Source: an uncultured Acidobacteriota bacterium
GTDB taxonomy: Bacteria; Acidobacteriota; Thermoanaerobaculia; Multivoradales; UBA5704
NCBI GenBank assembly: GCA_963732005.1
Contig: CAVSXT010000005.1
Span: forward strand, 2,638,631 to 2,702,630
Direction: 5' to 3'
DNA: 64,000 nucleotides
The notes below the pieces were generated by a model. That model was given only the letters and a program-made list of their open reading frames with translations, had not been told where the DNA came from and did not search any database. Below are positions 1,768-17,627 of the stretch, piece after piece; position 1 is the stretch's first letter, and the number at the start of each line of letters is the position of its first letter. Position numbers and translations under genes: made by a program.

Positions 1768-2268
1768 TCAGCGGCCTAACCCGAGTCCACGGTCCAGGAC
1801 TCTCTCGACCGCTCGGATGGCGAGCTCGACGCGGAAGGGAAGCTCGCGGGAGAGCGTCGAGACGGCCAGCCTGGCCGCTTCCGGGCCGATCTCGCGGACG
1901 ATGGCCTCGATCGCCTTCTCGGGTCCCTTCATCGCCTGCTCCACTCGCTGCAAGGTCCTGTTGAGGTGTTGTAGCTGGTCGCGCAGTTTGGGCAGGCTTT
2001 CGCCGATGGCGTTTGCGGGCGCCTGCGCCTGGGCGGCGGCGCGCTCTGAACCGTGATAGCGATCGAGGGCGGAGCGTAGGGTGGGCACGGCGCCGAGGGC
2101 CTCCTGCTGGGTTCGATCGGGCCGGCGAAGGAGGGTCTCCGGGCGACCGTGGATCTGGCCATAGACGGCGGCGTGCCCGGCTCTGAGTCGCTCGGACGCA
2201 TGCGGGTCGGCGGTCAGGCGCTCGACCACCTGGGCCGGCTGGGTGTAGACGCGCCCGGCCGCCCACAC
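1768..2268 (-). CDS. probable frameshifted C-terminal continuation of the relaxase (would give a ~1000-aa TraA-like protein)
   Basis: This frame is open and natural-looking from ~2400 down to 1768. The relaxase frame turns into low-complexity junk after ...DYAAAAIERQA. A G/C homopolymer lies at ~2391-2403. Confidence 0.5.
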   Translation of the reverse strand: MWAAGRVYTQPAQVVERLTADPHASERLRAGHAAVYGQIHGRPETLLRRPDRTQQEALGAVPTLRSALDRYHGSERAAAQAQAPANAIGESLPKLRDQLQHLNRTLQRVEQAMKGPEKAIEAIVREIGPEAARLAVSTLSRELPFRVELAIRAVERVLDRGLGLGR

Positions 2269-4775
2269 CAGGTTGGCGCGATCGGCGGCGAGGTCGCTTG
2301 CGGCGGTGACGGCATGCTCGACGGTGGACAGGTCCCCGCGGAGGTGCTGGATCTCATGGCGTAGGTTACTGGCCTGGTTCTCGAGCGGCGCGAGGGGGCG
2401 GCCTGGCGCTCGATGGCAGCGGCGGCGTAGTCGCGGGCGAGGTCGTCCTTGGACGGGGCGCGGGAGAGGGCGCGGTCGAGGTGCTCTCGGTCGGCGAAGG
2501 TCTGGCGGTCGGTGTAGACCTGGATGTCCTGGCGATGGCGGGTGAGTGCGACGTAGGAGGCGTTGCGGTTCATCAGCGGGTCGGCGAGGACGTAGGTGCG
2601 GTCTACGGTGGCGCCCTGGCTCTTGTGGATGGTGACCGCATAGCCATGGGCGATCTGGTCGTACTGGCCGGGATGGAAGGCCACCCGGCGGCCGTCGTCG
2701 AGGCGGGCGACGAAGCGGTCGGGCGAGACGCGCTCTAGGGTTCCCAGGGTGCCATTCTTGACGCCGACGGCCTGGCCCCTGGCGCGGCCGAGGTTGGTCA
2801 CCTCGCGGCCCTGGTGGTCGTTCTTGAGAAAGACCAGGCGGTCGCCGGCGGCGTACTCGGCGCCGGCGACGGTGATGCCGGCGCGGAGCTCGCCCGCGGC
2901 CAGGCGCTGGTCGCGGATGCCGGTGTTGAGGCGGGCGACGTCGTCGTTGCGGTAGGCGAGCACCAGCTGGCCGCGGCCGGGGTCGGCGGCGCGATCGGCA
3001 GCGTAGCGGGCCAGGAGGTCGGCGCGGGCGGCGTCGCGGGTGTCGGCGACGTGGAGGCGGCCGGCCTGCTGGTAGGCGTCGAGGGCCGGGGCAACGCGGC
3101 CACCGGCGAGGTCCGCGGACGCCTCGCGCTGCCAGGGCTCGGCCTGGCGGCGGATGGTGTCGAGGCGGGCCGAGGGGTGCTGCTCGAGCAGGCCGCGAAA
3201 GGCGTCGCCGGGTCCGATCGGCTTGAGCTGGTCGGGATCGCCGACCAGGATGACCTTGGCGCGCTGGCTGGCCGCATGGTCGAGCACGCGGGAGAGCTGG
3301 CGGGCATCCACCATGCCGGCCTCGTCGACGACCAGCACGCAGCGACGGTCCAGGAAATCGCCGTGCTTCCAGGAGTACTCCCAGCTGTGGAGGGTGCGGG
3401 AGCGGATGCCGGTCTCGCGCTGCAGGCTATCGGCGGCCTTGCCGGCCAGGGCGCCGCCGAGCACGTCGTAGCCAGCCTCGCGGTAGGCGTCGGCGATGGT
3501 GGCGGCGGTGGTGGTCTTGCCGGCGCCGGCGCGGCCGACGACGAGGGCGAGGTCGTCGCGGGTGGTGGCGGCAAGGACGGCGTCGCGCTGCTCGTCGGAG
3601 AGCCGCGGCGCGCGGTCGAGGGCACGCTGGACGTCGGCGGGATCGAGGCAGAGGTCCCGGCGGGCGGCGAGCTCGCCGGCGGCGTGGAAGAGACGCGCCT
3701 CGTCGCGCAAGTAGTCGGTGGAAGCGTAGTGGTTCACGCCGCGGGCGTCCTTGCCGACGCTGGCGGTCAGGTGGCGGTCGAGCGCGCGCTCGGCAAGGGC
3801 GTGGCTGTCGGGCTCATGGAACGCAGCGCGCCGGATGTCGGCCTTGGTGAAGGTGGCGCGGGTCGCGGTGAGGCGATCGATCAGCGCCGCGGCGCGCTCG
3901 CCGCGGGTGGCGCCGGCCAGGGGCTCGCGCTCGCGGGCGCCCTCCTGGAGCTGGACCTGGGGCGGCTCGGGATGGAGCTCGCGGTGCTGGCGGAAGGTCT
4001 CGCCGAAGCGGGCGGCGAGCTTCGGGCCGCTCAGGCTGCGGTCGACCTTGGAAAGTGAGATCCGGCGGCTGCCGTCGGTGACGACCAGGCCGGAGCCGCG
4101 CTCGGCCGGTTCGAGGCGGTAGCCGAGCCCGGCGAGCGCGGCTTCGAGCTCCACCCAGCTGGTGGCCTGGGCGAAGACGTGGCCGGCCTCGTCACGGACG
4201 CGGTCGGCGAAGGGCTGGACGCCAGTGCGCATGGCCTCGCGGACGGTGCCAGCGCCGAGGTCGGGGGGTGCCTGCTCGCGGCCGGTGCGGCTGAGGTCGT
4301 ACTCGACCTCGAGGGCGGGGATGGCCTCGTGGGCATGCACCATGTCGCGGAAGGGCCGCCAGGCGCGGCCGTCGTCGCCGATGCGGTTGATGACGATGTG
4401 GATGTGCTGGTTGTCGGTGTCGCGGTGGGCGATGAGCACGGCCTGGTGGTCGGCGAGCCCCATGCGGCCGAGGACGCGGCTGGCGACGTCCTCCCACTGC
4501 TGGCGGGTGAGGTGCTCGCCGGCGGCCAGGCTCAGGCCGAAGTGGTAGACGGGCTCCTCGACCCTGGGGTTGTCGCTGGCGGTGTAGCGCATGAGCTGGG
4601 CAGCCTCGGCGGGGTTGTCGGTGTCGAGGTTGCGGGTGCTGGACCAGGCGACCCGTGCGAGGTCGGGGCGGTCGCGGTGGCCCTGCTGGAGGTAGCGGAC
4701 GAGTCCGGCGAAGCTGCGGCCAAGCCCGGTTCTGGCGCCGGTGCCGGACTTGCGGCCGCCCTTGAAGGTGGTCAT
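2214..4775 (-). CDS. conjugative relaxase: MobA/VirD2-type relaxase domain fused to a TraA/RecD-like (P-loop, UvrD_C-like) helicase
   Basis: N-terminus carries the HxH motif HIHIVINRI. Walker A GRAGAGKTTT and VLVVDEAGMV are present. C-terminal helicase motif VTIHKSQGATVDRTYV. The last ~60 aa of the track ORF are compositionally unnatural, consistent with a frameshift near 2385-2405. Confidence 0.85.
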   Translation of the reverse strand: MTTFKGGRKSGTGARTGLGRSFAGLVRYLQQGHRDRPDLARVAWSSTRNLDTDNPAEAAQLMRYTASDNPRVEEPVYHFGLSLAAGEHLTRQQWEDVASRVLGRMGLADHQAVLIAHRDTDNQHIHIVINRIGDDGRAWRPFRDMVHAHEAIPALEVEYDLSRTGREQAPPDLGAGTVREAMRTGVQPFADRVRDEAGHVFAQATSWVELEAALAGLGYRLEPAERGSGLVVTDGSRRISLSKVDRSLSGPKLAARFGETFRQHRELHPEPPQVQLQEGAREREPLAGATRGERAAALIDRLTATRATFTKADIRRAAFHEPDSHALAERALDRHLTASVGKDARGVNHYASTDYLRDEARLFHAAGELAARRDLCLDPADVQRALDRAPRLSDEQRDAVLAATTRDDLALVVGRAGAGKTTTAATIADAYREAGYDVLGGALAGKAADSLQRETGIRSRTLHSWEYSWKHGDFLDRRCVLVVDEAGMVDARQLSRVLDHAASQRAKVILVGDPDQLKPIGPGDAFRGLLEQHPSARLDTIRRQAEPWQREASADLAGGRVAPALDAYQQAGRLHVADTRDAARADLLARYAADRAADPGRGQLVLAYRNDDVARLNTGIRDQRLAAGELRAGITVAGAEYAAGDRLVFLKNDHQGREVTNLGRARGQAVGVKNGTLGTLERVSPDRFVARLDDGRRVAFHPGQYDQIAHGYAVTIHKSQGATVDRTYVLADPLMNRNASYVALTRHRQDIQVYTDRQTFADREHLDRALSRAPSKDDLARDYAAAAIERQAAPSRRSRTRPVTYAMRSSTSAGTCPPSSMPSPPQATSPPIAPTWCGRPGASTPSRPRWSSA

Positions 4776-5314
4776 CCGCGGGGCTCGTCCTGGAGGGCGC
4801 GGCGGACGGCGCGCACCTCGGCCTGGACGCTCTGGACGGCGCCAAGCAGGGCGGCCGACAGCAGGGTGCCGGAGTGGGCGAGCTTGACGAGCTGGTTGAG
4901 GTTGTTGCCGGCCCTGGCGAGCTGGACGATGGCAGCGCGGGCGAGGGGCCAGCGCGCAGTCGGCGGCCTGCCGCGTACGAGGTGGCGCAGGTAGGTACCA
5001 ACGGTGACGCCGGCGCCCTTGGCGCGGGCTTCGAGGTCAAAGTACTGGCTCGGGGTGAGCCGGGCACCCACGATGCACGACAGGGGCTCGGGCTCGGCGG
5101 CCCCACCTGCCGGGTCTCCCGCGGCGGGGGCGCAGGGCAACGCCCCGGCGGTGGCGAGGGGCGCGCCGGCAGGCGCGTCGCCGGCGGCGAGCCGATCAAG
5201 GACGGTGCGGCGGCACCAGGCGGCGGGCGCCAGCCCGGCGGCCCGCGCCGCGGCGGCCAGACGCGCATGCTCCTCGGGGGTGAGCCGGAAGGCGACGAGG
5301 TGGGACCGGCTCAT
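4772..5314 (-). CDS. mobC: MobC-family mobilisation (relaxosome accessory) protein
   Basis: Motif ...QLARAGNNLNQLVKLAHSG is the MobC signature. ATG at 5312-5314. The stop overlaps the relaxase start, giving a mobC-relaxase operon. Confidence 0.75.
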   Translation of the reverse strand: MSRSHLVAFRLTPEEHARLAAAARAAGLAPAAWCRRTVLDRLAAGDAPAGAPLATAGALPCAPAAGDPAGGAAEPEPLSCIVGARLTPSQYFDLEARAKGAGVTVGTYLRHLVRGRPPTARWPLARAAIVQLARAGNNLNQLVKLAHSGTLLSAALLGAVQSVQAEVRAVRRALQDEPRG

Positions 5315-5924
5315 GGCCGTCGCCTCGGTCCAGGGCCGCGCAGGCGCCGAGCGCAGCGAAGGCGCCCTTCCCGACCAGGCGGCCCGGCGTTGCGCTGGCG
5401 GACCGGGAGCGGGCGGCTGACGCCCCTGCTGGCGGCAACGCCGAGGGCCGGGCCCGACGCCGGTGGGCGAAGGCAACGCCGGTGGGCTGCCCGTCTGAAA
5501 CTTACCAACGACGCGCAGGTGGTGGCAGCGGCCGGGTCGATGCCGATGGAGCCACGGGTGGCGGGCGGCGAGGCAACGACGATCGACCCCCCTACCTGGA
5601 AAGCAGAGCGGAGAAGGCCGATAGACCTGCAGCGAAGCCGGCAGGGTCGGCGCTTCGACCGGTGAGTGGCACGAAGGTCGGAGAGTGCGGCGGTGACGAT
5701 TGGGGAGCGGCACCGGATGGCGGGCGGGTGCCGAGTTGCCCGGGCCGTAGCGACGTGGGACGCGACCTCGCCCGAGTCCGGGAAGGGTCGAAGAGTGATC
5801 AGCCGGGTCCGGTCCATGGCATTCGAGCCGAAGGCGAGAATGCCCCGCCTGGTAACGGAGTTAACAGGCGGCTTTCTTGCTCTCAAGCTCCTCTGAGGCC
5901 GACCTACGAGCCTGTGGGGTGCTA

Positions 5925-5975
5925 GACATCCTCATATGACCATCATATCATGATATAGACCATGAATAGTGGGTC
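5925..5975. promoter_or_regulatory. AT-rich divergent intergenic island with a 12-bp perfect palindrome ATATCATGATAT and GACCAT repeats; candidate oriT/nic or operator-promoter
   Basis: The only markedly AT-rich stretch in the mob/xis-primase region. It sits between the divergent mobC-relaxase and xis-primase operons. Confidence 0.35.
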
Positions 5976-6076
5976 ACAGTGGAGTGCAACGTGCGGTGGG
6001 AACGCCTGCCAGGGCCTCCATTGACCCCTTCAACCCGGGCCGGCTCGCCCGGCCGTACGACTGCGAGGTGATCGTG

Positions 6077-6281
6077 ATGTCCGTGCTGCTCAACACCCGG
6101 CAAGCCGCCGAACGCTGCAACCTGTCGGCGCACACCCTGGAGAAGTACCGGGTCACCGGTGGCGGACCGCCCTTCATCCGGCTGGGCAGGGCGGTCCGCT
6201 ACCAGCTCGAAGAACCTGGAAGCGTGGATCGCGGCCCACCGGCGGCGGAGCACCTCCGACGAGCTGGACGCTCGCGGTTGA
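6077..6281 (+). CDS. AlpA/Xis-like HTH excisionase/transcriptional regulator (apparent +1 frameshift near 6213)
   Basis: MSVLLNTRQAAERCNLSAHTLEKYRVTGGGPPFIRLGRAVRYQLEE, followed in the +1 frame by ...LEAWIAAHRRRSTSDELDARG*. This is the typical AlpA C-terminus. The track fuses this gene to the primase as one 719-aa ORF. Confidence 0.55.
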
Positions 6282-6298
6282 GCTGGACGCTGCCGGCG

Positions 6299-8128
6299 AT
6301 GTCCGACGACGGCGCCCAGCTGGCGGCGATCGAACGCGCCCTCGCGGCGAGGCAGGCTCGCCGCGAGGGGCGCGAGCTGCGGTTCCTGTGCCCGGCGCAC
6401 GAGGACCACCGCCCCTCGGCGCGCTGGAACCACGAGAAGCGGACATGGGTCTGCGACGTGTGCCGGACGGGTGGTGGCTGGCGCGATCTCTCGGCGCGGC
6501 TGGGCCTCGAGCTGCCGGCCGGCGGCGGCGAGCCGCTCGCCGAGGTCGAGGCGGTCTACGACTACCGCGACGGCGACGGCCGCCTGCTGTTCCAGGTGCT
6601 GCGCAAGCGGGGCAAGCAGTTCCCCTGCCGGCGGCCGCTGCCGGGCGGCGGCTGGGCCTGGAACCTCGAGGGCATTGAGCGGGTGCTCTACCGGCTGCCG
6701 GAGACGGTGGTGGCGGTGGCGGCCGGCGAGACGGTGTTCCTGGTCGAAGGGGAGAAGGACGCCGACCGCCTGGCGGCCCTGGGCCTGGCCGCCACCACCA
6801 ACCCCGGCGGCGCCAAGAAGTGGCGGGCGGCCTACGGCGCGGCGCTGCGCGGCGCCCGAGTGGTGATCCTGCCGGACAACGACCTGGCGGGCCGGGAGCG
6901 TGCCGGCACGGTCGCCAGGAGCCTGACGACGATGCGCGGTGGCGCCGCGGCGGAGGTGGGGATGCTCGAGCTGGCGGGTCTGCCCGAGAAGGGCGACGTG
7001 TCGGACTGGATCGCGGAGCGGGAGCGGGCGGGACGGCCGGCGGCGGAGATCCGCCGCGAGCTCGGGGAGCTGGCGGCCGCGGCGCCCACGGTGTTGCCGG
7101 CGGACCTCTCGCCGGCGGGATCCCCGGCGGGGCGTCGGTCGCGTGTCCGCCGCGCTTCGGATGTGCCGCCGCAGGCGGTGGTCTTCCTGTGGCAGCCCTA
7201 CATCGCGTGCGGCAAGCTGACGCTGCTCGAGGGCGATCCCGGGCAGGGCAAGAGCTGGATCGCCGCGGCGCTGGCCACCGCGGGCTCGCGCGGCCAGGGC
7301 CTGCCCGGCGCGGCGCCGTTTGCGCCCTTCCGGACGCTGATCTTCACCGCCGAGGACGGCCTGGGCGACACGCTGCGCCCGCGGCTCGACCTGCTGGGGG
7401 CCGACTGCGACGCGGTGTTCCTGCACGACCAGCCGCTCGACCTTGCCCAGGCCGACGACTTTGCCGAGATCGAGCAGGCGCTGGCCGAGCACCGGCCGCG
7501 CCTGGTCATCCTGGACCCGATCGTGGCCTATCTCGGCGCGAAGACCGACGCCTATCGCGCCAACGAGGTGCGGGCGATCCTCGCCCCGCTGGCGCGGCTC
7601 GCCGACCGCCACGGCTGCGCGGTGCTCGCCGTGCGCCACCTCAACAAGTCGCGGGGGAGCCGCAGCATCTACGCCGGCCAGGGCTCGATCGACTTCACCG
7701 CCGCGGCGCGCTCGGTGCTGCTGGCCGGCTGCGGCGCCGATGACGACGCCGAGCGGGCGCTGGTGCACATCAAGTCCAATCTCGCCGCGGTCGGGCCGAC
7801 CCTGGCCTATGCCATCGACGAGCAGGGCTTCCGCTGGGCCGGGGCGAGCCCGTTGCGGGCCAGCGACCTGCTGGCGCCGGAGGCCACCGGCAACGACCTG
7901 TCCTCGCTCGACGAGGCGCGGGCCTTCCTGCGCAGCCTGCTCGGCGCCGGCCCGGTGAGCACCAACGAGATCTGGGCCGCCGCCCGCCAGGCGGGGATCG
8001 CCGAGCACACCCTGCGCCGCGCCAAGCAGCTCGAGGGCATCGTTGCCCGCCGCCAGGGCTACGGGACGGGCGGCAGCTGGCGCTGGTCGCTGGACGGACC
8101 GCCGGCCGCGCCGGCGGGGGAGGGGTGA
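6299..8128 (+). CDS. phage/plasmid-type bifunctional primase-helicase (CHC2-like zinc finger, Toprim, AAA_25/RepA-like P-loop)
   Basis: Zinc-finger motif LRFLCPAHEDH...WVCDVCRTGGG. Toprim motif FLVEGEKDADRL...VILPDNDLAGRE. Walker A EGDPGQGKSW, plus LVILDPIVAY and AVRHLNKS. Confidence 0.8.
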   Translation: MSDDGAQLAAIERALAARQARREGRELRFLCPAHEDHRPSARWNHEKRTWVCDVCRTGGGWRDLSARLGLELPAGGGEPLAEVEAVYDYRDGDGRLLFQVLRKRGKQFPCRRPLPGGGWAWNLEGIERVLYRLPETVVAVAAGETVFLVEGEKDADRLAALGLAATTNPGGAKKWRAAYGAALRGARVVILPDNDLAGRERAGTVARSLTTMRGGAAAEVGMLELAGLPEKGDVSDWIAERERAGRPAAEIRRELGELAAAAPTVLPADLSPAGSPAGRRSRVRRASDVPPQAVVFLWQPYIACGKLTLLEGDPGQGKSWIAAALATAGSRGQGLPGAAPFAPFRTLIFTAEDGLGDTLRPRLDLLGADCDAVFLHDQPLDLAQADDFAEIEQALAEHRPRLVILDPIVAYLGAKTDAYRANEVRAILAPLARLADRHGCAVLAVRHLNKSRGSRSIYAGQGSIDFTAAARSVLLAGCGADDDAERALVHIKSNLAAVGPTLAYAIDEQGFRWAGASPLRASDLLAPEATGNDLSSLDEARAFLRSLLGAGPVSTNEIWAAARQAGIAEHTLRRAKQLEGIVARRQGYGTGGSWRWSLDGPPAAPAGEG

Positions 8129-8161
8129 TGGCCTAGCGGGGTCGCGGCGGCGCGCAGGCGT

Positions 8162-8393
8162 CCATAGATGGCCAAGCTCCCCATATATGGAGGTTGGTCA
8201 TCTATGGGTGGGAATGCGGGCTGGGACGGTCCCGTCCGGCGAGCCGATGCGCTTTTCTCGGGCAGGCTCTGGCGTGCTCTGGCGAACGCGGGAGGGCGTG
8301 GAATGGCGCGAGGCGGCGAGCCGGCCGGAGTTCGCGAGGGGACAGCCGCCGGGGCGTGGCCGGCCGGACCGGCGCTGGCTTGGCCATCTATGG
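8162..8393. repeat. four copies of a CCAT(A/C)(G/T)ATGG-type palindromic motif (ccatagatgg, ccatatatgg, tcatctatgg, ccatctatgg)
   Basis: Seen directly at ~8162, 8181, 8198 and 8384. The array lies between the primase stop and the next gene. Confidence 0.5.
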
Positions 8394-8480
8394 TGCGGCG
8401 GCTCCAACCCGGGCAGACCGGGGGTGTTTGGAGGGCGCCGAGCGACCCTGGAAACGTGAGACGGACGACCCGGAGACCCG

Positions 8481-9149
8481 ATGACATCTCGCCGCGCCGG
8501 CCTTGCCATCGCCCTCGCCGCCATCCTGGTCCAGGCACCGCGCCTGGTGCTGGCGCTGCTTGCCGCCGACCGGCTGCCGGTGGCGGCCCCGACCGAGCGT
8601 GCCCTGCTGGTGCTGGCCGGGATCGGCACCGCCTTGGTGCTGACCGGCGGCAACCTCTACCTGGCTCACACCGTCGCCCAGGTGCGGCCATGGCGGCGGA
8701 CACTGGCGGCCACCTGGCTGGCGGTGCTGGCCGCCTCGGGCGGCCTGGTCCTGCCGTTGATCGTCGCCGGGCTGTCCGCGCGCACCCTGCCCGAGATCCT
8801 TGGCGCCGGCAGGCTCGCCTGGCCGTGGGCGGTGCTCGCCGCGATCGCGCACGAGCTGACCGCTGCCGGCTGCGTGCTGGCAGGCGCTGCCTGGGCCGCT
8901 CAGGCTGGTGGCGCAGCCGGAGTGGGGACGGCGCCGCGGGTCGCTGCCGCCATCGAGCTGCCGGCAGGCAGCGAGGCCGGCCTGCCGGCAGGAGCGGCGG
9001 CCGGTGGTGCGCCGCCGCAGGCTGCGGCGCAGGGAATCGCTTGCCGCGCGGGCTGCGGCAGAAGGTTCGGGTCCCAGCAGGCCGAGATCGCTCACCTTCG
9101 GCATTGCCCCCGCCGGCAGGCTCGCGCCGGCGCGGAGCCCGCGAACTGA
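8481..9149 (+). CDS. hypothetical integral membrane protein with a Cys-rich C-terminal tail
   Basis: Several hydrophobic helices. Natural-looking composition. No family recognised. Confidence 0.4.
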   Translation: MTSRRAGLAIALAAILVQAPRLVLALLAADRLPVAAPTERALLVLAGIGTALVLTGGNLYLAHTVAQVRPWRRTLAATWLAVLAASGGLVLPLIVAGLSARTLPEILGAGRLAWPWAVLAAIAHELTAAGCVLAGAAWAAQAGGAAGVGTAPRVAAAIELPAGSEAGLPAGAAAGGAPPQAAAQGIACRAGCGRRFGSQQAEIAHLRHCPRRQARAGAEPAN

Positions 9150-9192
9150 CCGCCGCTCCGGGTGACAACTCGTGCGGCTGGCAGGCGGGCGT

Positions 9193-9340
9193 TGCCGGCA
9201 CTCTGCCAGGTCGCTGCCGGAGCTTCGCGGTGCTGGTGGTGGCCCAGCGGCACCGTGCCGGCACCCGCCTCCTGGACCTGCCGGCACGGTGCCGGCACTC
9301 CCGCAAGCCCTGCCGGCACTTCGGCGAGGCCTGCCGGCAC
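9193..9340. repeat. iteron-like array: six copies of TGCCGGCAC (palindromic 8-mer TGCCGGCA) within ~150 bp
   Basis: Copies at ~9193, 9256, 9279, 9290, 9311 and 9332, with spacings of 63, 23, 11, 21 and 21 bp. Overlapping track ORFs are compositionally unnatural. Confidence 0.6.
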
Positions 9341-10383
9341 GCCAGCCGGCAGGCTGCCACGGCCTGCTGGCCGCTGCGGGTCGAGCACCGTGGCAGCGGT
9401 TCGGGGATCGCGCCTGCCGTGGCCGCTCGACGAGTGGTCGCCGATCGGCGATCGCGTGCGGGTGGTGCTCGCAGCGGTCGCTCGCGGCGCTGCCGTGGGC
9501 GGCGGCGTCGCGTTGGCGAGTCCCGGCGGCAAGGGCAGGTCGCCCGTGCGGTGCAGCGTCGGCAAGCGGAGCAGCATGCCGGTGGCCGCGAAGGCGGGCA
9601 ACGGCGATGCAAGGGCAGGGCAGCCAGGAAAAAAACCAGCGTCTGTACCGGCATCACCGTCCACCTTGGCCGAGCAGCGACAGCCAGGGTTCCCTACCGA
9701 TAATGTCAACTTAACGCAAGGCAGGAGCCCTCATGACCGGTCGTGGTGAAGCGGCGTTCGGAGCGCGGGCGGGTCGCGCCTCGCCCTGCTGCGTCTGACT
9801 TGCGATAAGAGATTGATATCAAGCCCGCAGGGGAGCCGAGATCATTCTCGGCCGAGCCCTGCGTGACGCCGTAGCTCAAAGCGGTAGGTGGGGCAGCTCG
9901 GCGGGCCGCCGCCGGGCGCGCCGCCGGCCTCGGTCCCACCGCCGGCAGCGCCATCTATGACGGCCGCTCGGGTCGGTGCGGTCACCACGGTGCTCTCGAA
10001 TTTCGCGCCCAGAGCGAAGCGGAGGGCGCGAACCAACCGGCCCCCGGGCGCCGGGCAACCTGCGATGGGCAAGCAGGTGCTCGCCCGTGGGGCTTCCTTG
10101 ATTCGATGACGACGCTCGCGAAGCGAGCGGAAAAACGATTGCTCTGGCAACCTGGCCGCAGCCAGACAGGGCCGGGGGCACCTGCGTGCGCGATCACTCA
10201 TCGACCTCATGACCGGCCGCCTCAATGAGGCCGTGGATGGACGAGCATGGCCAGCGCCGGTCTCGAGCAGGACCGGGGGAGCCTCATTGCTTGAAGCGTC
10301 GCCGATAGGAGCCGGCCGGCCGGCGCACCGGGTGCTCCTCCTCGTTGCGATGCAGTCCCAGGATCTGTCCACTCCCAGCTGGC

Positions 10384-10659
10384 TCAGCGGACCACCAGGT
10401 GTCTCAACTCGATCGGTTTCCCGGTTAGCAGGGAATAGAGCACGTCAGGGTCGAGATCGGCGCCGTTTGGCCAGGATACGGTTCCATGTTCGGCGTCGAC
10501 CCGCACCTTGGCGACCTCTCTGGCGTCGCGCAGGGGCTCGAAGACTCCCTTGAATTCGATGAGCTTCGATAGATCGATCTCGCCCTCCACTCCGTCCTCG
10601 AAACGAAGGTAGAGCTTGTGTTCTCCGGCAGGTCGAGCTTCCACGATGTCTTTCAGCAT
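10384..10659 (-). CDS. DUF2442-family protein
   Basis: ...WPNGADLDPDVLY... is typical of DUF2442. Forms an operon with the upstream DUF4160 gene. Confidence 0.7.
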   Translation of the reverse strand: MLKDIVEARPAGEHKLYLRFEDGVEGEIDLSKLIEFKGVFEPLRDAREVAKVRVDAEHGTVSWPNGADLDPDVLYSLLTGKPIELRHLVVR

Positions 10660-10662
10660 GGC

Positions 10663-10923
10663 TCACTCCAAGGGAGCAATCTGCACGAGCGGCTCCTGCT
10701 TCCGGGCCAGCTCCCAGTCGGTTAGAAGCTCAGCCCTGTGCAACGCAGCCCATTCCACGACGAGTCCCAGCACCCTTGGCGTCAGCTCGCCGTACAGGAT
10801 GGTTAGCGATTCGATATCGATGATCGCCTTCAGCTCGCCGTAGCGCGCGTGGAAGTGCGGCGGCGGATGATCGTTATAGTACAGCGAGATGACAATGCCT
10901 AAGAACCGGCTGACCTCTGGCAT
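10663..10923 (-). CDS. DUF4160-family protein
   Basis: MPEVSRFLGIVISLYYNDHPPPHFHARYGE... is the conserved DUF4160 N-terminus. Internal ATG at 10921-10923. Confidence 0.7.
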   Translation of the reverse strand: MPEVSRFLGIVISLYYNDHPPPHFHARYGELKAIIDIESLTILYGELTPRVLGLVVEWAALHRAELLTDWELARKQEPLVQIAPLE

Positions 10924-11310
10924 CTGAGTCGTGTTCTCCTGGACACCACAGCGCAAGTCAGGCGCTGAACCACCGCCCCATGGGCCGGCCGGTCGGCCTC
11001 CGGCTCAGTCTGGAGAGCCCGAATGGCCCCGAGAGCCTGTCAGCCTCCAGCCCCGCCTTGAGAACCGGGAAGACCTTTTCGTCATAGCCGGATTCATCCG
11101 CGAGCCACTCGCGCACGAGCTCGAGCGCCCGGGCGTTCCGGGCACGCAGGTCGTCGGCAATCGTAGCTTCTGGGTGTGACCTCTGCTGTTGGGTGGCCAC
11201 CCTTTCTTCTTTGGCTTCGAAGCGGGCCAGTAAGCGCCATAGCCAGTTTATACCTGCGGAGGGGAGGGGAGCGCCGGCCGGCGCTCTCTCGAGGTCGGAT
11301 CGCGGTGGCC

Positions 11311-11988
11311 TCACCAGCCCCCTCGCGCGTAAAGCGACTCCCACTGGCCGGCGGCGCCGAGCACCAGGTGGTCGAGGAGGTCGACGCCAAGGAGCGCCGC
11401 GGCGTCCGCCAGCTGGTGGGTGAAGCTCAGATCCTCCGGCCTGGGCGTCGGACCGCCACTGGGGCGGGTGTGGAAGACCACGAAGCCGCTGGCGCCGCGG
11501 AGCAGGCATTGTTTGAGGATCTCCCGTGGTTCGACCGCGGTGCGGTGGAGAGTGCCGCGGTAGATCTCCTGCTCGCCGAGGAGACGGTGACGGGTGTCGA
11601 GGAACAGGGCGCCCAGCACCTCCTGGTCGCGCTGCCGGTAGCGGAGCGCGAGGAAGCGGGCGACCTCGTCGGGGCGGGTGAGGGGGCGGCGGACCGGGAT
11701 GCGCTGGCGCGCCAGGCGGCAGGCGATCTCGAGGGCCGCGAGCAGCGCCGACGCCTGGGTGTCGCGAAGGCCCCGGAGCCGCAGCACCGCTCGCGACGTT
11801 TCCGGGAGTGCGGCGAGCCCGCCCTCGTCGGTCAGGAGCTTGCGGGCGAGCCGGAGGGATGTGCGGTGGGCGCGGCCGCCCGCGAGCAGCACGCCGAGCA
11901 CTTCGGCATCGGTGATCGCGTGCAGGTGGCGCTCGAAGCGGTCGGTCGCGGCGCTGACTTGGGCGGCGACGCCGGCGTCACACTTCAT
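11311..11988 (-). CDS. RadC-like JAB/MPN-domain protein (common mobile-element cargo)
   Basis: JAB-like motif VVFHTRPSGGPTPRPEDLSFTHQL with the RadC-type C-terminus. Confidence 0.75.
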   Translation of the reverse strand: MKCDAGVAAQVSAATDRFERHLHAITDAEVLGVLLAGGRAHRTSLRLARKLLTDEGGLAALPETSRAVLRLRGLRDTQASALLAALEIACRLARQRIPVRRPLTRPDEVARFLALRYRQRDQEVLGALFLDTRHRLLGEQEIYRGTLHRTAVEPREILKQCLLRGASGFVVFHTRPSGGPTPRPEDLSFTHQLADAAALLGVDLLDHLVLGAAGQWESLYARGGW

Positions 11989-12319
11989 GGAACGTCACCC
12001 CATAGGGTGCCTCCGGTACGGCTTGGATGCGGACGAACGCCTGGCGGCGCGACTCGGGCAGGTCGGACGCCGCCTCTTCGAGGCGGGTCCACAGGGCCAG
12101 CCAGCGCCCGCCCGCGAACAGCACGACCAGGCCGGCCTCGTCGGGCGAATAGTCGGGATACCAGTCGCCGCGCGCGATTTCGGCGGGCGGGGCCGGCGCG
12201 GTGAAGTGGACGGCGACGACGATGTCGTAAAGGGCGCGGCGGGTGGCTTCGGTGTAGACCTCGAGGTCGAGGCCGGGGGGCAGGGACGCGGGGTTGGTAG
12301 AATCCTGCTCGCTGCGCAT
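11978..12319 (-). CDS. hypothetical protein (113 aa) upstream of the RadC-like gene
   Basis: ATG at 12317-12319. Natural composition. Overlaps the RadC-like gene start by 11 nt. Confidence 0.4.
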   Translation of the reverse strand: MRSEQDSTNPASLPPGLDLEVYTEATRRALYDIVVAVHFTAPAPPAEIARGDWYPDYSPDEAGLVVLFAGGRWLALWTRLEEAASDLPESRRQAFVRIQAVPEAPYGVTFHEV

Positions 12320-12460
12320 GGGGGATCCTCCCGTGCGTGGTAGGCCTCGGCATTGGGTTACCGCCCGTGCCGGGGCCGCTTTCCGGTGGATGAGGAGGGG
12401 CAATCCCTCCCCGCTGTGCTCCTCTCTCTCGTCCTCCTTCCTGGCGTCGCCGGTGCGGGC

Positions 12461-13240
12461 CTACGGCAGGGGCCGAGGCTCGAACCGCAGCACGCGGCCC
12501 TCCTGCCGCTCACCGCGCAGCGCCGCGGCCAGGCCGCCGGCGATCAGGTCGGCCGCCGCGAGCAGCTGCTCCGGCCGCAGGTGGGTGTAGATGTCGTGCA
12601 CGTCGCGGCCCAGCGAATGGCCCATCAGGCGCATCCGGATCTCGCGTGGCACGCCGAAGTAGGCGGCGGTGCTGTTGAAGGTATGGCGCGTCGCGTCGTA
12701 GAGGCGCATCCGCGCCGGCAGCTCGGCGCGCGCCGCCAAGCGCTCCCAGAGCCGCTTGAGATCCGACATGGGGCCGGAGCTCCGGCCGGGAAAGATGAGG
12801 TCCCCGCAGCAGGGTAGGGCGCGCAGCAGATCGATCGCCGGGCGTCCCAGGTAAACCGACCGCGGCCCCGCCTTGGACGCCGGCAGGTGCCAGATGCGCG
12901 CGTCGAGGTCGATCGCTTCCCAGCGGGCGTTGAGGGCCTCGCCCGGCCGGCAGCCGGTCAGGAGCATGAAGGTGAACGCCGCCGCCGGTGTCGAGTCCTG
13001 GCGCTCCTTGCGCAGGGCCTCGCCGAGTCGCCCGAGCGCCGCCATGTCGAGCGCCTGGCCGCGCCGCTCCTCGTGGTGGCGGTCGTGGCCCTGGGCCGGG
13101 TTCGGCATCTCGCGCGGCCACCAGCCCCAGCGCGCGGCCAGCGCCCACGCCTTCGAGCAGGCGGCCAGCACACCGTCCGGCGCCGCCGGCGGCCGGCGTA
13201 ATATCGCCGCCGCACCGGCGTCAATACATGTAACTGTCAT
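12461..13240 (-). CDS. tyrosine recombinase/integrase, catalytic domain only; N-terminal arm/core-binding domain apparently missing
   Basis: LLTGCRPGE (box I Arg), ...HTFNST..., LMGHSLGRDVHDIYTHL (His/Tyr). Only ~95 aa precede the catalytic domain. The ATG at 13238-13240 abuts an AT-rich junction. Confidence 0.7.
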   Translation of the reverse strand: MTVTCIDAGAAAILRRPPAAPDGVLAACSKAWALAARWGWWPREMPNPAQGHDRHHEERRGQALDMAALGRLGEALRKERQDSTPAAAFTFMLLTGCRPGEALNARWEAIDLDARIWHLPASKAGPRSVYLGRPAIDLLRALPCCGDLIFPGRSSGPMSDLKRLWERLAARAELPARMRLYDATRHTFNSTAAYFGVPREIRMRLMGHSLGRDVHDIYTHLRPEQLLAAADLIAGGLAAALRGERQEGRVLRFEPRPLP

Positions 13241-13276
13241 AACACTAATTGGACGCGGAGCGTCCGGGAGAAGACC

Positions 13277-13765
13277 ATGACGAGAATTCAGCGCAGCGTT
13301 TTCCTCGCAGTGGCGGCCTGTACGTTGTTGGGCGGCGCGGCCCACGGCGGCGACCTGCAGGAGAAGAACAAGGCGGTGGCCCGCCGTGTCTTCGACGACA
13401 TCTTCAACCGCGGCCGGCTGGAGGTCGCCGGCGAGATCTATGCCCCGGATTTCGTCGACCACGGCCTGCAGAGAGACACCGGCCTGCGCCAAGACCAGGC
13501 AGCGGTGCGCGGCTGGCGGATGGCAGCCCCCGACCTGGTGATGACCGTCGATCAGATGCTGGCCGAAGGTGACCGCGTCTGCGTCCTGTGGACCGGTCGC
13601 GGCACCAACACCGGCGAAGGCAACGGCCTGCCCGCCAGCGGCAAGCGCTTCGCGCTGCGCGGCATCACCATCTGGCGCATCGAGGGAGGCCGGATCCGCG
13701 AGGAGTGGTCCGAGTTCGACATGTTGGGCCTGCTGCGCCAGACCGGCGTGCTGCCGCCGGGCTGA
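13277..13765 (+). CDS. SnoaL-like/ester-cyclase-family secreted protein
   Basis: Signal peptide MTRIQRSVFLAVAACTLLGGAAHG. The SnoaL-like core resembles the gene at 59677-60234. Confidence 0.6.
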   Translation: MTRIQRSVFLAVAACTLLGGAAHGGDLQEKNKAVARRVFDDIFNRGRLEVAGEIYAPDFVDHGLQRDTGLRQDQAAVRGWRMAAPDLVMTVDQMLAEGDRVCVLWTGRGTNTGEGNGLPASGKRFALRGITIWRIEGGRIREEWSEFDMLGLLRQTGVLPPG

Positions 13766-14281
13766 GGCGGCGCCTCGGCAGCGGCACCGACCATACTCTG
13801 AAACTCTTGGACTTGCTTGACTGTCAGATCGATCATGGGTTGTACCGAGATCATCTGCTCAAGCGCGCATACGAACTCTGCCGGTCCCCGCCGCCAGGTC
13901 CGCGCCAGATCCACGGCAGGCACAAGAAGTCGCCAGCGAGGCGGCCGGGCTACAGATCCCGGACCAGCTCGGCAGCCGTCGTCTCCAGAGCCTTTGCAAA
14001 CTTGCAGATGTTCAGCAGGGAGATGTTCCGGCGGCCCCGCGAGCCGTTGCTCGCCGGGGACCTGGCGGGCGTGTGGCGGACTACCTGGAACTTCGCGTCG
14101 AGTATCGACGCTTGATGCGGACGCTGGCTCCGATTCTTTCAGCTCTGCATCGATAGCGGCTCAGCTGTAATCGGTGGCCGCCTGGCCCGACCTTCGCGAG
14201 CTCGATCACTTGGGGTTGCTGACCATGGCCCTTCTCAGGCGCGAGGGCTTGTGGGATCGGGCTGGTCGGCTGGGGTTAGCG

Positions 14282-14548
14282 GCCGAGGCCGAGTCCGCGG
14301 TCCAAAAACTCTCTCGACCGCTCGGATGGCGAGCTCGACGCGGAAGGGAAGCTCGCGGGGGAGCGCCGAGACGGCCAGCCTGGCCGCTTCCGGCCCTATC
14401 TCGCGGACGATGGCCTCCATCGCCTTCTCGGGTCCCTTCATCGCCTGCTCCACTTGCTGCAAGGCCCTGTTGAGGTGTTGTAGCTGATCGCGCAGTTTGG
14501 GCAGGCTTTCGCCAATGGCGTTCGCGGCGGCCTGCGTCCTCGGCCGAG
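14282..14548 (-). pseudogene. 3'-terminal fragment of a relaxase gene; ~270-bp direct repeat (~90% identity) of 1780-2050
   Basis: Nucleotide identity is visible by eye. Translation (...NAIGESLPKLRDQLQHLNRALQQVEQAMKGPEKAMEAIVREIGPEAARLAVS...) parallels the relaxase C-terminus. The flanks diverge. Confidence 0.75.
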
Positions 14549-14700
14549 TACCCCCGGCCGCACTTCGCGCCATCGCGGTACAGCCGGGGGCGGACGCCGA
14601 AGGGCTTGAGCTGGCGGGCGAGCTGGACCGCGGACATGGTCCGGCCGTGCCGCCCAGGGCGGCCCACAGCAGGGTGCACTAGTTGGATGCGCAATCCCAA

Positions 14701-14961
14701 TCACTGTCCACCAAGTTGTAGGTGTCGTTCCTCTCGTGCCCTCGGTTTGACACCTGAGAGATCGAGCTTCTCCACGAGCCGGCGTCTTGCGCGCAGCGTT
14801 TCAGTCTCTGCCAGCAATCCGCGTCGGTGAAGTCTGGTGATTGCATCGGCGTCGCGCTGTAGGTCATCGAGGAGCGTCGCAGAACCAGGCTCCGGCTGTG
14901 GGTATCCAAGCTGTTCCGCGAGAGATGGCGCCGAGGCGCCAAACCTTAGGGTCAAGGACAT
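14701..14961 (-). CDS. hypothetical small protein (86 aa) downstream of a ~130-bp AT-rich island
   Basis: Internal ATG at 14959-14961. No family recognised. Confidence 0.3.
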   Translation of the reverse strand: MSLTLRFGASAPSLAEQLGYPQPEPGSATLLDDLQRDADAITRLHRRGLLAETETLRARRRLVEKLDLSGVKPRAREERHLQLGGQ

Positions 14962-15258
14962 ATTCACTCCTTTCCTAATCCCATCTTGTTGAAATTCACA
15001 CTTCGAAAGAAAACTTAGCACAGGAGTTTTGCGAACTACAACAGAGTTATTGACAAATGCCGATATCACTGCGGTGATCCATCAGGGTGCGCCAGGGTGC
15101 GCGCCGCGAACCCGGCCCAAGCTGTCCAGCTCTCCTGGGTGACGAGTTATGCTCTCGGCGGCAGTAAGTCGGCAAAGCAGCGGCGTCGCACAGCTGGCGG
15201 TCTTTGTTTTCGCTCTCCAATTAGCGGCCGGACAACCGGGCAACGCGACCCCAGGGCC

Positions 15259-15573
15259 TCACAGCCCCCCGTGGAACCGTCCGAATCCGTGCGCGAGCAT
15301 GAGCGACATGATCAGGATGCCCGCCCCGAGGACGAGCACGTGCCGGGTGTTGCGCAGACTGAAGTCGCCGACACGACAGACGAGCAGGTAGCCGACGGCA
15401 AGGTTGAAGAGGCCCCAGAGGACATTGATCGTCGAGGAGGACAAACCTTCCCCGGGCGGCGATGCGAAGGGGCTCTGGAAGGCATGCCCCGAGATCCCAT
15501 TGCCGAGATGGGGCAGGGTATTCGCGAGGAATGCGCCCCCGAAGAAGTACGCCACATAGTGGTACCACCGCAT
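15259..15573 (-). CDS. small integral membrane protein (104 aa)
   Basis: Three predicted hydrophobic helices. Natural composition. Confidence 0.45.
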   Translation of the reverse strand: MRWYHYVAYFFGGAFLANTLPHLGNGISGHAFQSPFASPPGEGLSSSTINVLWGLFNLAVGYLLVCRVGDFSLRNTRHVLVLGAGILIMSLMLAHGFGRFHGGL

Positions 15574-15923
15574 GGTTGCTCCCTTCTCTTAGAGGAGGCC
15601 GCGAAGCTGGTTGCGGGTGAGTGAGCTCGCAGTCGCGCAAAATCGCAGCCAGAAGGCCCGGTCCGATTCTCTCCCCCGCGTGGACCGGGACGACCGTCGT
15701 GCGACCGTCTGCATGCCTCAGCGATGCTGGCTCGCCAGCTCCGACGGCTGGGTCGGTAGTGAGGGCGGTGGCCAGCGTCGCTCCTGTTCGCCTCCGAGCT
15801 TTCCGCCCGATCGCGGCACCGAGCGGCTCGCTGGCCCCGCGGCGCCCGGTCGGACTCGCCGAGGAGCTCGCGACCGAGCTGGGTGGCCTTCCCGCGGCAG
15901 CGGCCGCCGGTTCCGAGTTTCCT

Positions 15924-17540: not shown

Positions 17541-17627
17541 GGCGAATTGCCTTGAATTAGATATGGTAAAACATGGGAATGATCCCCGATCTGCCGGGCT
17601 GCATTCAGCGGCGCCAAAGGAGATTCG

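What the first reader, a model, noticed from the sequence alone, without database searches (positions are those of the whole stretch)
9193..9340. Array of six TGCCGGCAC palindromic repeats downstream of the primase-helicase: candidate iterons or origin
Six copies of a 9-mer built on the 8-bp palindrome TGCCGGCA occur within ~150 bp, at irregular 11-63 bp spacing. The array lies in a stretch whose ORFs are all compositionally implausible, 1 kb downstream of a RepA-like primase-helicase. Iterons bound by the element's initiator are the obvious interpretation. A regulator-operator array is an alternative.
Basis: partly seen in the sequence, partly recalled or inferred. Interest (0 to 1): 0.55.

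Follow-up and report, generated by a model that had tools for sequence, protein, structure and literature searches.

The report
Palindrome array tied to membrane zinc-finger gene
The six TGCCGGCAC repeats are real and conserved, but they travel with a neighbouring gene for an uncharacterised membrane protein with a zinc finger, not with the primase-helicase, so they are probably that protein's DNA docking sites; the element's replication origin more likely lies 1 kb upstream.

Summary
Observation confirmed. Six exact TGCCGGCAC copies lie at 9193-9340. Two more exact 8-mers (8959, 8983) and six one-mismatch copies make a 550-bp array. The motif is rare elsewhere: 5 copies in 63 kb.

The array is conserved in 13 related Thermoanaerobaculia (Acidobacteriota) loci. 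Spacers have diverged, but the GCCGGC core is invariant. Site spacing peaks at a 10.5-bp period.

The iteron reading is disfavoured:
- The array always accompanies OrfX (8481-9149), and the two are gained or lost as one cassette. OrfX has four hydrophobic helices, a disordered linker and a C-terminal beta-beta-alpha zinc finger.
- OrfX plus array occurs without the helicase, and the helicase occurs without them.
- OrfX genes with other zinc-finger types carry other repeats at the same place (CAGCGCTG, or a 22-bp tandem repeat).
- The array region is 77% GC, with no AT-rich element and no DnaA box.

A better origin candidate lies just 3' of the helicase. It is three 16-mers, CCATAGATGGCCAAGC, at 8162, 8192 and 8378. 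They are present in every close relative, vary with lineage, and the helicase has a C-terminal winged helix.

Best reading (0.4): a phased double-stranded binding array for OrfX's zinc finger, possibly a DNA-membrane tether. Nothing is tested biochemically.

The parts
9193..9340 (.). Core array: six exact TGCCGGCAC copies (9193, 9256, 9279, 9290, 9311, 9332). The 8-bp core is palindromic. Two copies (9255, 9289) are the 10-bp palindrome GTGCCGGCAC.
   Evidence: Conserved at the same position in relatives.
9344..9351 (.). One-mismatch copy AGCCGGCA, 12 bp after the last exact copy.
8959..8990 (.). Two exact copies (CTGCCGGCAGG at 8958 and 8982, 24 bp apart) inside the part of OrfX that encodes the disordered linker, read as LPAG. 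One or two copies lie at the same place in 12 of 13 group I loci.
8804..9118 (.). Scattered one-mismatch copies (8804, 8864, 8875, 8945, 9111) in the 3' half of OrfX. They may be part of the array or may reflect codon content.
8481..9149 (+). OrfX, 222 aa. Four long hydrophobic helices (residues 3-146), a disordered linker (148-182) and a C-terminal beta-beta-alpha zinc finger (C188-x3-C192-x3-F196-x8-H205-x3-C209). It forms one indel cassette with the array.
8162..8393 (.). Second repeat family and the better origin candidate. CCATAGATGGCCAAGC at 8162-8177 (+), an inverted copy at 8192-8207 flanking the palindrome CCATATATGG (8181-8190), and a third inverted copy at 8378-8393. Local GC is 65% against about 75% around it.
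6311..8128 (+). Primase-helicase: CHC2 zinc ribbon, Toprim-like region, AAA_25 RepA-like ATPase and a C-terminal winged helix (ORF residues 641-707). The true start is near 6311, not 5969.
2214..5713 (-). Relaxase (MobA/VirD2 plus AAA_30) and a NikA/MobC accessory gene, divergent from the HTH_17-helicase-OrfX operon. They define the element as mobilizable.
12461..13492 (-). Tyrosine integrase of the element. RadC lies at 11311-11988.

Best explanation
The TGCCGGCA copies are a helically phased array of double-stranded-DNA protein-binding sites. The array belongs to the OrfX cassette of an integrative mobilizable element from a Thermoanaerobaculia-type (Acidobacteriota) genome. It is not the primase-helicase's iteron set. 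The array starts in the linker-coding part of OrfX and runs about 200 bp past its stop, at the 3' end of the HTH_17-helicase-OrfX operon. The most likely binder is OrfX's own C-terminal zinc finger, with one finger per TGCC/GGCA half-site in a dimer or higher oligomer. OrfX is anchored in the membrane by four helices and reaches DNA through a roughly 35-residue flexible linker. It can therefore approach DNA from one side only, which would explain why the sites sit on one helical face. The inferred outcome is that the excised or replicating element is held at the inner membrane, for retention or for hand-over to a helper's transfer machinery. Shown here: the array is real, conserved, phased and linked to OrfX, and the motif changes with zinc-finger type. 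Inferred: that OrfX binds the array. Speculative: that the function is membrane tethering.
For: The array is conserved with diverged spacers. blastn similarity to relatives ends at 9115-9217, yet each relative has 3-7 sites in the next 200 bp. Among 50 sites the GCCGGC core is invariant and the flanking T is kept in 92%. In all 13 group I OrfX loci TGCCGGCA is the most enriched 8-bp palindrome between -260 and +460 of the OrfX stop. Spacings peak at a period of exactly 10.5 bp, with R = 0.62, n = 41 and 0 of 5000 jittered nulls reaching it. OrfX and the array form one indel unit. L001 matches L046 and L029 up to the third CCATAGATG site and resumes just after the last TGCCGGC copy. There is a double dissociation from the helicase. 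The motif co-varies with the OrfX zinc-finger type. S[QRH]Q[AG]EIAH goes with TGCCGGCA. S[PS]AAELGH (L101, L102, no helicase) goes with CAGCGCTG, 3-4 copies in the linker at a 21-bp period plus 2 at the operon end, p = 1e-9 to 1e-11. TAPALAGH (L095, helicase 81% identical to the window's) goes with a 22-bp tandem repeat of 7.7 copies. In the OrfX model the finger has pLDDT about 90. C188, C192, F196, H205 and C209 are invariant, and R189, R207 and R212 nearly invariant, in 55 homologues.
Against: There is no binding data. A single zinc finger is a weak DNA binder on its own, and the finger reaches only sub-threshold Pfam C2H2 scores. The array and the finger-coding segment are physically adjacent, so their co-variation could reflect co-inheritance after recombination in the linker rather than function. 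Loci are related, so the site and spacing counts are not independent. The 10.5-bp phasing could follow simply from 11- and 21-bp tandem-repeat units. Several OrfX homologues (L003, L004, L044, L061) show no clear array. No partner NTPase was found. The copies in the linker may be kept by selection on the LPAG peptide rather than on the DNA.
Confidence: 0.4

Rival explanations
1. The array is iterons or an accessory origin element for the primase-helicase. It would be a second cis site like P4 crr that helps helicase loading or copy-number control.
For: It has 6-8 short repeats within 1.1 kb of an initiator-type primase-helicase that carries a C-terminal winged helix. SaPI origins use 6-12 short iterons 3' of rep (PMC9371898). 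The 21-22-bp period resembles classical plasmid iterons (own knowledge). L007 keeps an array next to the helicase with only a 40-aa OrfX remnant.
Against: There is a double dissociation from the helicase. The motif is unchanged across helicases 64-93% identical, yet it is replaced in L095 despite an 81% identical helicase. There is no AT-rich element; the region is 77% GC. There is no DnaA box. A different repeat set sits where SaPI-type origins sit and does track helicase lineage.
Confidence: 0.15
2. The array is a hairpin cluster at the operon end that acts in RNA or single-stranded DNA. Self-complementary 8-mers would pair with each other to terminate or stabilise the transcript in both directions, or to form a priming structure on transferred single-stranded DNA.
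For: The array lies just after the last gene of the operon. In L027, L101 and L102 that is a convergent intergenic region. It folds strongly: RNA z = -4.15, DNA z = -3.2. There is a 15-bp perfect inverted repeat at 9249-9263 and 9279-9293. Pairs 11 bp apart would give 8-bp stems with 3-nt loops in every relative.
Against: There is no U-tract. Any palindrome would serve, yet the same 8-mer is kept in 13 loci. Copies also lie inside the OrfX coding region, where termination would be harmful. Phasing extends to spacings of 63, 74 and 95 bp. There is no Rfam match.
Confidence: 0.15
3. The sites are bound by another protein that reads GC-rich TG...CA palindromes, such as the element's HTH_17/AlpA-type protein or a host factor. 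They would act as a roadblock, insulator or silencer at the border between backbone and cargo.
For: The core is palindromic, as expected for a dimeric helix-turn-helix protein. Sequence downstream of the array differs between relatives, so the array marks the border with variable cargo. In L101 and L102 the non-coding copies follow the AlpA gene directly. RacA, a winged helix-turn-helix protein, reads TGACGCCGGCGTCA with critical TG/CA steps (PMC4914108).
Against: L097 and L098 have OrfX plus sites but no HTH_17 gene within 4 kb. L001 keeps HTH_17 without the array. No copy lies in any promoter region of the element. The array sits 3' of genes.
Confidence: 0.2
4. The array is a selectively neutral GC-rich minisatellite. 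It would be spawned from the linker-coding repeat of OrfX and kept similar by slippage or gene conversion, perhaps acting only as a recombination hotspot.
For: TRF sees 11-, 21- and 24-bp tandem units. Copy number varies by whole 11-13-bp units between relatives. The motif also encodes LPAG in a low-complexity linker.
Against: Spacers have diverged beyond blastn detection while the 6-bp core is invariant in 50 sites. Slippage would homogenise whole units, not only the core. Two sites persist in L098 in a quite different context.
Confidence: 0.1

Closest known systems
SaPI/PICI Rep origins: short iterons immediately 3' of rep, read by the Rep C-terminal winged helix (PMC9371898)
   Same: Both have an initiator-type primase-helicase with a C-terminal winged helix and arrays of 6-12 short repeats downstream of it. 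More distant relatives fetched here are textbook cases: L056 has 11 CCGGGAAC copies with AT-rich spacers, and L022 has 8 CGGTTGAA copies around an AT-rich centre.
   Different: In this element that role fits the CCATAGATGGCCAAGC sites at 8162-8393, not the TGCCGGCA array. The TGCCGGCA array is separated from the helicase by a gene, lacks an AT-rich centre and dissociates from the helicase in other loci.
Classical plasmid iterons (17-22-bp direct repeats at a period of about 22 bp, next to rep; own knowledge)
   Same: Both have a 21-22-bp period, a conserved core within a degenerate unit and 5-8 copies.
   Different: The neighbouring gene is a membrane zinc-finger protein, not a Rep. The core is palindromic rather than directional. 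There is no unwinding element and no DnaA box.
Plasmid centromeres built from phased short repeats: R1 parC (11-bp repeats, ParR) and R388 stbS (9-bp repeats at an 11-bp period, StbA) (own knowledge)
   Same: Both have short repeats at 11- or 21-bp spacing on one DNA face, next to the gene of the presumed binder, sometimes in two clusters.
   Different: No ParA, ParM or TubZ partner was found in the element. The presumed binder is an integral membrane protein with a zinc finger, not a ribbon-helix-helix or helix-turn-helix adaptor.
RacA-ram chromosome anchoring in Bacillus subtilis (PMC4914108; DNA-membrane tether, PMC6593407)
   Same: Both use clustered GC-rich palindromes with a GCCGGC centre and TG/CA ends. 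In RacA these fix DNA at the membrane.
   Different: RacA is a soluble winged helix-turn-helix protein that reaches the membrane through DivIVA, and its sites are spread over hundreds of kb. Here the presumed binder is itself membrane-embedded and the sites form one 0.5-kb array on a mobile element.
Membrane-bound one-component regulators such as ToxR and CadC (own knowledge)
   Same: Both have a DNA-binding domain tethered to the inner membrane.
   Different: Those proteins have an N-terminal winged helix, one transmembrane helix and a periplasmic sensor, and they bind promoters. OrfX has four transmembrane helices and a C-terminal finger, and its sites are at the 3' end of its own gene.
Streptomyces TraB-clt: 8-bp TRS repeats read by a winged helix of a hexameric motor (own knowledge)
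   Same: Both have arrays of 8-bp repeats at or after the 3' end of a transfer gene on a mobile element.
   Different: TraB is an FtsK-like double-stranded-DNA translocase. This element uses a relaxase. No FtsK-like gene was seen.

Membership tests
Initiator iterons / oriV (SaPI-type or plasmid-type) | Repeats lie immediately next to the initiator gene. | tested here: not met
   The array starts 1065 bp after the helicase stop, with the OrfX gene in between. The 8162-8393 repeats occupy the adjacent position.
Initiator iterons / oriV (SaPI-type or plasmid-type) | Repeats co-occur with the initiator across related elements. | tested here: not met
   L001/L038 and L035 have the helicase without the array. 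L096/L097 and L098 have the array without the helicase.
Initiator iterons / oriV (SaPI-type or plasmid-type) | The repeat sequence diverges together with the initiator's DNA-binding domain. | tested here: not met
   The same TGCCGGCA motif accompanies helicases 64-93% identical. It is replaced in L095 although that helicase is 81% identical. By contrast, the CCATAGATG-type sites do change with helicase lineage.
Initiator iterons / oriV (SaPI-type or plasmid-type) | An AT-rich unwinding element and/or DnaA boxes lie next to the repeats. | tested here: not met
   GC is 73-80% across the array and 77% over 9150-9400. No DnaA box with one mismatch or fewer lies within 38 kb.
Initiator iterons / oriV (SaPI-type or plasmid-type) | The initiator binds the repeats, and the fragment supports replication. 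| not testable with these tools
   This needs EMSA and a replication assay.
Plasmid centromere (parC/parS-like) | A cluster of short, helically phased repeats. | tested here: met
   Spacings peak at 10.5 bp with R = 0.62. Spacings of 11-13 and 19-24 bp dominate.
Plasmid centromere (parC/parS-like) | The gene for the centromere-binding protein is adjacent. | tested here: inconclusive
   OrfX with a C-terminal zinc finger is adjacent and co-varies with the motif. Binding is not shown.
Plasmid centromere (parC/parS-like) | A partner NTPase (ParA, ParM or TubZ) is encoded. | tested here: not met
   No such domain was found in the ORFs tested between 984 and 13923.
Operator array of a transcription factor | Sites overlap or adjoin a promoter. 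| tested here: not met
   The sites lie at the 3' end of the operon, which is a convergent intergenic region in L027, L101 and L102. The only promoter-like hit is at 9677-9704, more than 330 bp away, and downstream sequence in general is not shared with relatives.
Intrinsic terminator / REP-like extragenic palindromes | A stable hairpin followed by a U-tract (terminator), or genome-wide dispersal (REP). | tested here: not met
   Hairpin potential is present, z = -4.15. There is no T-run and no terminator-like hit in the array. The motif is not dispersed: 5 copies in 63 kb.
Classical C2H2-type (beta-beta-alpha) zinc finger, for the OrfX C-terminus | The pattern C-x2-4-C-x3-F-x5-hydrophobic-x2-H-x3-5-H/C and a beta-beta-alpha fold. 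| tested here: inconclusive
   The ligand spacing and F196 are present, and C188, C192, F196, H205 and C209 are invariant in 55 sequences; the usual hydrophobic position is Glu and the last ligand is Cys. AF2 gives two strands plus a helix at pLDDT about 90. Pfam scores are below the cut-off, E = 0.018-0.1. Metal binding is untested.
Known RNA families | A match to an Rfam covariance model. | tested here: not met
   There is no hit in 8000-10500 at E of 1 or less.

The most novel reading that the evidence does not exclude
OrfX founds a new class of integral-membrane DNA-binding protein with a single zinc finger, so far seen only in Thermoanaerobaculia-type metagenomes. Each OrfX lineage has its own phased palindrome array at the 3' end of its gene. 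Together they would form a one-protein DNA-membrane anchor that positions an excised mobilizable element at the inner membrane for segregation or transfer. No such system is described for mobile elements.
Probability: 0.2. Interest if true: 0.75.

Novelty: new variant of a known kind. Interest (0 to 1): 0.5.

Why it matters
Mobile elements of Acidobacteriota are almost unstudied. Three things follow if the reading holds.

- The replication origin of this element family moves to a defined 230-bp region with lineage-specific 16-mers. That region can be tested directly for building vectors in a phylum that lacks genetic tools.
- A family of about 200 hypothetical proteins is identified as a backbone gene of relaxase-bearing elements. 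These proteins have four membrane helices and an invariant zinc finger.
- The gene-plus-array module, whose repeat changes with the finger type, is a ready system for asking whether a membrane-embedded protein can read DNA sequence and hold a replicon at the membrane.

If the array proves to be a terminator or a neutral repeat, the finding is ordinary.

Tried and rejected
- Rfam scan of 5500-14500 at E of 1 or less found nothing in the region.
- There is no tRNA in the window to mark an att site.
- The promoter and terminator scan found nothing inside the array.
- PLSDB plasmids in distant mode gave only short hits to the primase part and no related replicon.
- A full-text search for TGCCGGCA returned only incidental primers and phage ends.
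- Exact-protein look-ups for the window's helicase, OrfX and its same-genome paralogues are not on record, so the source genome could not be read.
- A PDB sequence search with the helicase gave no hit. Foldseek of the OrfX model against PDB gave only generic helix bundles with E above 0.8.
- Pfam, NCBIfam and PHROGs gave nothing above threshold for OrfX.
- No DnaA boxes were found nearby.
- A coding repeat was considered and rejected for 9150-9400. Spacings are not multiples of 3, there is no GC3 signal, and relatives differ by 11-13-bp units. The 411-aa minus-strand ORF that JGI calls over the L100 array has flat codon-position GC and is likely spurious.
- oriT was rejected. The relaxase accessory gene and its upstream region lie at 5713-5970.
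- Integrase arm sites were rejected. The integrase is 3 kb away, and RadC plus the integrase are conserved beyond variable cargo.
- The long inverted-repeat element that follows the array in many relatives is absent from the window.

Full report
**1. The observation**

- The window holds 11 strand-hits against 2.05 expected, and no shuffle reaches that number.
- Away from this region the 8-mer TGCCGGCA occurs only 5 times in 63 kb. Six copies in 148 bp has a Poisson probability near 4e-15.
- The array is wider than reported. There are exact 8-mers at 8959 and 8983. There are one-mismatch copies at 8804, 8864, 8875, 8945, 9111 and 9344.

**2. Context**

The window is about 72% GC.
- Pfam places a MobA/VirD2-type relaxase with an AAA_30 helicase at 2214-4775 (-). 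A NikA/MobC accessory gene lies at 4772-5713 (-).
- Divergent from these is an HTH_17 gene followed by a primase-helicase (zinc ribbon, AAA_25). RadC is at 11311-11988 and a tyrosine integrase at 12461-13492.
- Alignment with 23 homologues puts the helicase start near 6311.
- This is an integrative mobilizable element. Its relatives are all from Thermoanaerobaculia or other Acidobacteriota metagenome assemblies.
It has GC3 of 0.86 and 202 homologues, none with a Pfam domain.
- Only 9150-9700 lacks a coding signal.

**3. Conservation**

I fetched 94 loci through the helicase and eight more through OrfX homologues.
- blastn similarity between the window and its relatives ends at 9115-9217. Even so, every relative that has an OrfX of the same subfamily carries 3-7 sites in the 200 bp after the OrfX stop, or up to 560 bp in L100. 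Twelve of the 13 also have one or two in the linker-coding part.
- In all 13 such loci TGCCGGCA is the most enriched 8-bp palindrome in that zone.
- Over 50 sites from nine of these loci the core GCCGGC never varies. The 5' T is kept in 92%. The last base is A or T. The base before the 8-mer is C in 74%.
- The extra 3' C that makes the window's 9-mer is not conserved (C 27, G 21), so the site is essentially palindromic.
- Spacings cluster at 11-13, 19-24, 31-36, 45, 61-68, 74 and 95 bp. The resultant length peaks at a period of exactly 10.5 bp (R = 0.62, and 0 of 5000 jittered controls reach it).
- Caveats: the loci are related, and 11- and 21-bp tandem units would produce this period by themselves.

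**4. Which gene the array travels with**

- L001 and L038 have a helicase 76-82% identical to the window's. They match L046 and L029 up to the third CCATAGATG site and resume just after the last TGCCGGC copy. OrfX plus the array is therefore a single indel cassette of about 900 bp.
- L035 (helicase 86% identical) lacks OrfX and keeps one copy.
- L096/L097 and L098 have OrfX followed by sites but no helicase within 4 kb.
- OrfX proteins fall into zinc-finger types, and the repeat changes with the type:
  - S[QRH]Q[AG]EIAH goes with TGCCGGCA.
  - In L101 and L102, OrfX sits between NikA and an AlpA gene and there is no helicase. The finger is S[PS]AAELGH. The palindrome CAGCGCTG occurs 3-4 times in the linker at a 21-bp period and twice after AlpA at 21-22 bp (p = 1e-9 to 1e-11).
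  - L095 has a helicase 81% identical to the window's and a similar membrane domain, but the finger is TAPALAGH. The OrfX stop is followed by a 22-bp tandem repeat of 7.7 copies (GCTGGCAGCGGCGCTCGAGGTC), with a single exact TGCCGGCA.
- Other OrfX homologues (L003, L004, L044, L061) show no clear array.
- Because the finger-coding segment and the array are adjacent, this co-variation could also come from joint inheritance.

**5. What OrfX is**

- The AF2 model, built with 55 homologues, has mean pLDDT 76.5. It gives four long helices (residues 3-146, pLDDT 85-92), a disordered linker (148-182) and a beta-beta-alpha unit at 186-206 with pLDDT about 90.
- The helices are hydrophobic and contain conserved polar residues.
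- C188, C192, F196, H205 and C209 are invariant. R189, R207 and R212 are nearly so.
- The ligand spacing and the Phe match the classical C2H2 pattern; the last ligand is Cys and the usual hydrophobic position is Glu. Pfam gives only sub-threshold C2H2 hits.
- The N-terminus is basic (MTSRRAG). With four helices, the positive-inside rule suggests that both termini, including the finger, are cytoplasmic; this was not tested with a topology predictor.
- Foldseek finds nothing informative.

**6. Where the origin more likely is**

- Directly after the helicase stop lie CCATAGATGGCCAAGC (8162, +) and an inverted copy (8192). They flank the palindrome CCATATATGG. A third inverted copy lies at 8378. 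Local GC is 65%, the lowest in the backbone.
- The same arrangement occurs in every close relative whose sequence extends that far (L028, whose contig ends after the pair, shows only the pair). There is an inverted pair exactly 36 bp apart and a third copy 175-186 bp further on. This includes the relatives without OrfX.
- Copies are mostly alike within an element and differ between elements (GGCC, GACC, GATC, GCCC).
- Helicases 55-68% identical carry related but distinct repeats at the same place. Examples are TAGGTGATCAA, CATAGGGGGCC, AAGATGGCCAT, GAAGATGATCA, four copies of CCCATACAGGGCCA, and CATAGGCGGCCAA.
- Remote primase relatives show classic origin layouts. L056 has 11 CCGGGAAC copies with AT-rich spacers. 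L022 has 8 CGGTTGAA copies around an AT-rich centre.
- The helicase model ends in three helices plus a beta-hairpin (residues 641-707, pLDDT 81-90), which is a winged helix.
- The GRCC versus GATC site variants roughly follow a Q versus H/E change in the wing.
- This matches SaPI Rep proteins. Their C-terminal winged helix reads short iterons placed immediately downstream of rep, on both sides of an AT-rich centre (PMC9371898).

**7. Mechanism and rivals**

- I take the TGCCGGCA array to be a phased set of binding sites on double-stranded DNA that belongs to the OrfX module. OrfX's own finger is the most economical binder.
- A membrane-embedded protein with a flexible linker of about 35 residues can only reach DNA from the membrane side. 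That would explain one-face phasing. Tethering of the element at the membrane is the inferred outcome.
- Precedents for the logic are RacA with its clustered GC-rich ram sites (TGACGCCGGCGTCA; PMC4914108) and phased plasmid centromeres (own knowledge). No partner NTPase was found.
- Helicase iterons are disfavoured by sections 4 and 6. There is also no AT-rich element and no DnaA box.
- A hairpin cluster at the operon end fits the position and the strong folding. It does not fit the absence of a U-tract, the intragenic copies, or the retention of one specific palindrome.
- Another binder, either HTH_17/AlpA or a host factor, cannot be excluded.
- A neutral minisatellite is unlikely given the invariant core in diverged spacers.

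**8. Verdict**

- The iteron reading is not supported, although the idea of a binding-site array is.
- The feature is a new variant of a known kind of cis element, attached to an uncharacterised protein family.
- All functional steps remain inferences from sequence.

Noticed in passing
window 8162-8393 (also 9948-9961): Three copies of the 16-mer CCATAGATGGCCAAGC directly after the helicase stop. Two are inverted, 36 bp apart, around CCATATATGG, and the third lies 186 bp further on. A fourth partial copy is at 9948. The set is conserved in all close relatives and is lineage-specific in distant ones. It is the likely replication origin.
   Followed up: yes
window 6077-6310: The HTH_17 (AlpA/excisionase-like) gene carries a +1 frameshift relative to L095, an extra A in ctcgaagaAcctgg near 6211-6216. 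The ORF therefore runs in frame into the helicase ORF (5969-8128), and the normal C-terminus (...LEAWIAAHRRRSTSDELDARG*) is read in another frame. This could be decay, a sequencing error or a real fusion.
   Followed up: partly
window 5925-5970: An AT-rich patch with repeats, CATATGACCATCATATCATGATATAGACCATGAATAG, lies between the NikA/relaxase operon and the HTH_17 gene. It shares ATGACCA with one copy of the 16-mer repeats. It is a candidate promoter, operator or oriT region.
   Followed up: no
window 9994-10114: A 120-bp stretch in otherwise unique non-coding DNA is about 81% identical to sequence upstream of the HTH_17-primase genes of a different element family (L025, L064, L078). It is also found 1.7 kb after the array in L036. 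It may be a remnant of another element.
   Followed up: partly
window 9249-9293: A 15-bp perfect inverted repeat, GGCACCGTGCCGGCA and TGCCGGCACGGTGCC, with a 15-nt loop. It is built from two array copies and dominates the predicted single-strand fold.
   Followed up: partly
window 24657-47720 (-): A single 7687-aa ORF encodes a non-ribosomal peptide synthetase. It has repeated condensation, AMP-binding and PP-binding modules and ends with a sulfotransferase and a thioesterase domain. A methyltransferase gene lies divergent at 47725-48825.
   Followed up: partly
window 10384-10956 (-): A DUF2442/DUF4160 gene pair lies in the variable cargo region. Its GC is clearly lower at third codon positions than in the backbone.
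   Followed up: no
window 14000-24500: About 10 kb at 62-67% GC lies between regions of 72-78% GC. It holds few ORFs with the host-like GC3 signal and may be foreign DNA.
   Followed up: no
L029:9400-9560; also L030, L036, L046, L001, L038, L004, L003, L095: A conserved element of about 150 bp with a long inverted repeat (ctcccccccctcgc ... ccgggggtcaaggccggcgaagccgccgagcgcagcgagggcagccttgacgcccggg ... gcgagggggg). It follows the array, or follows the helicase where the cassette is missing. It is absent from the window.
   Followed up: no
L056:8542-8770; L022:10016-10178; L017:2704-2837; L064:7110-7254: Distant primase(-helicase) relatives from other phyla carry dense arrays of lineage-specific 8-9-mers at or just after the 3' end of the gene. 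L056 has 11 CCGGGAAC copies with AT-rich spacers, L022 has 8 CGGTTGAA copies, and L017 and L064 have 5-6 CCGTCACA copies. These are origin-like layouts.
   Followed up: partly
L101:4001-5040; L102:4001-4930: In another branch of these elements OrfX is the first gene of an OrfX-AlpA operon next to NikA and the relaxase, with no primase-helicase. Its linker contains a 21-bp coding tandem repeat that carries the palindrome CAGCGCTG.
   Followed up: partly
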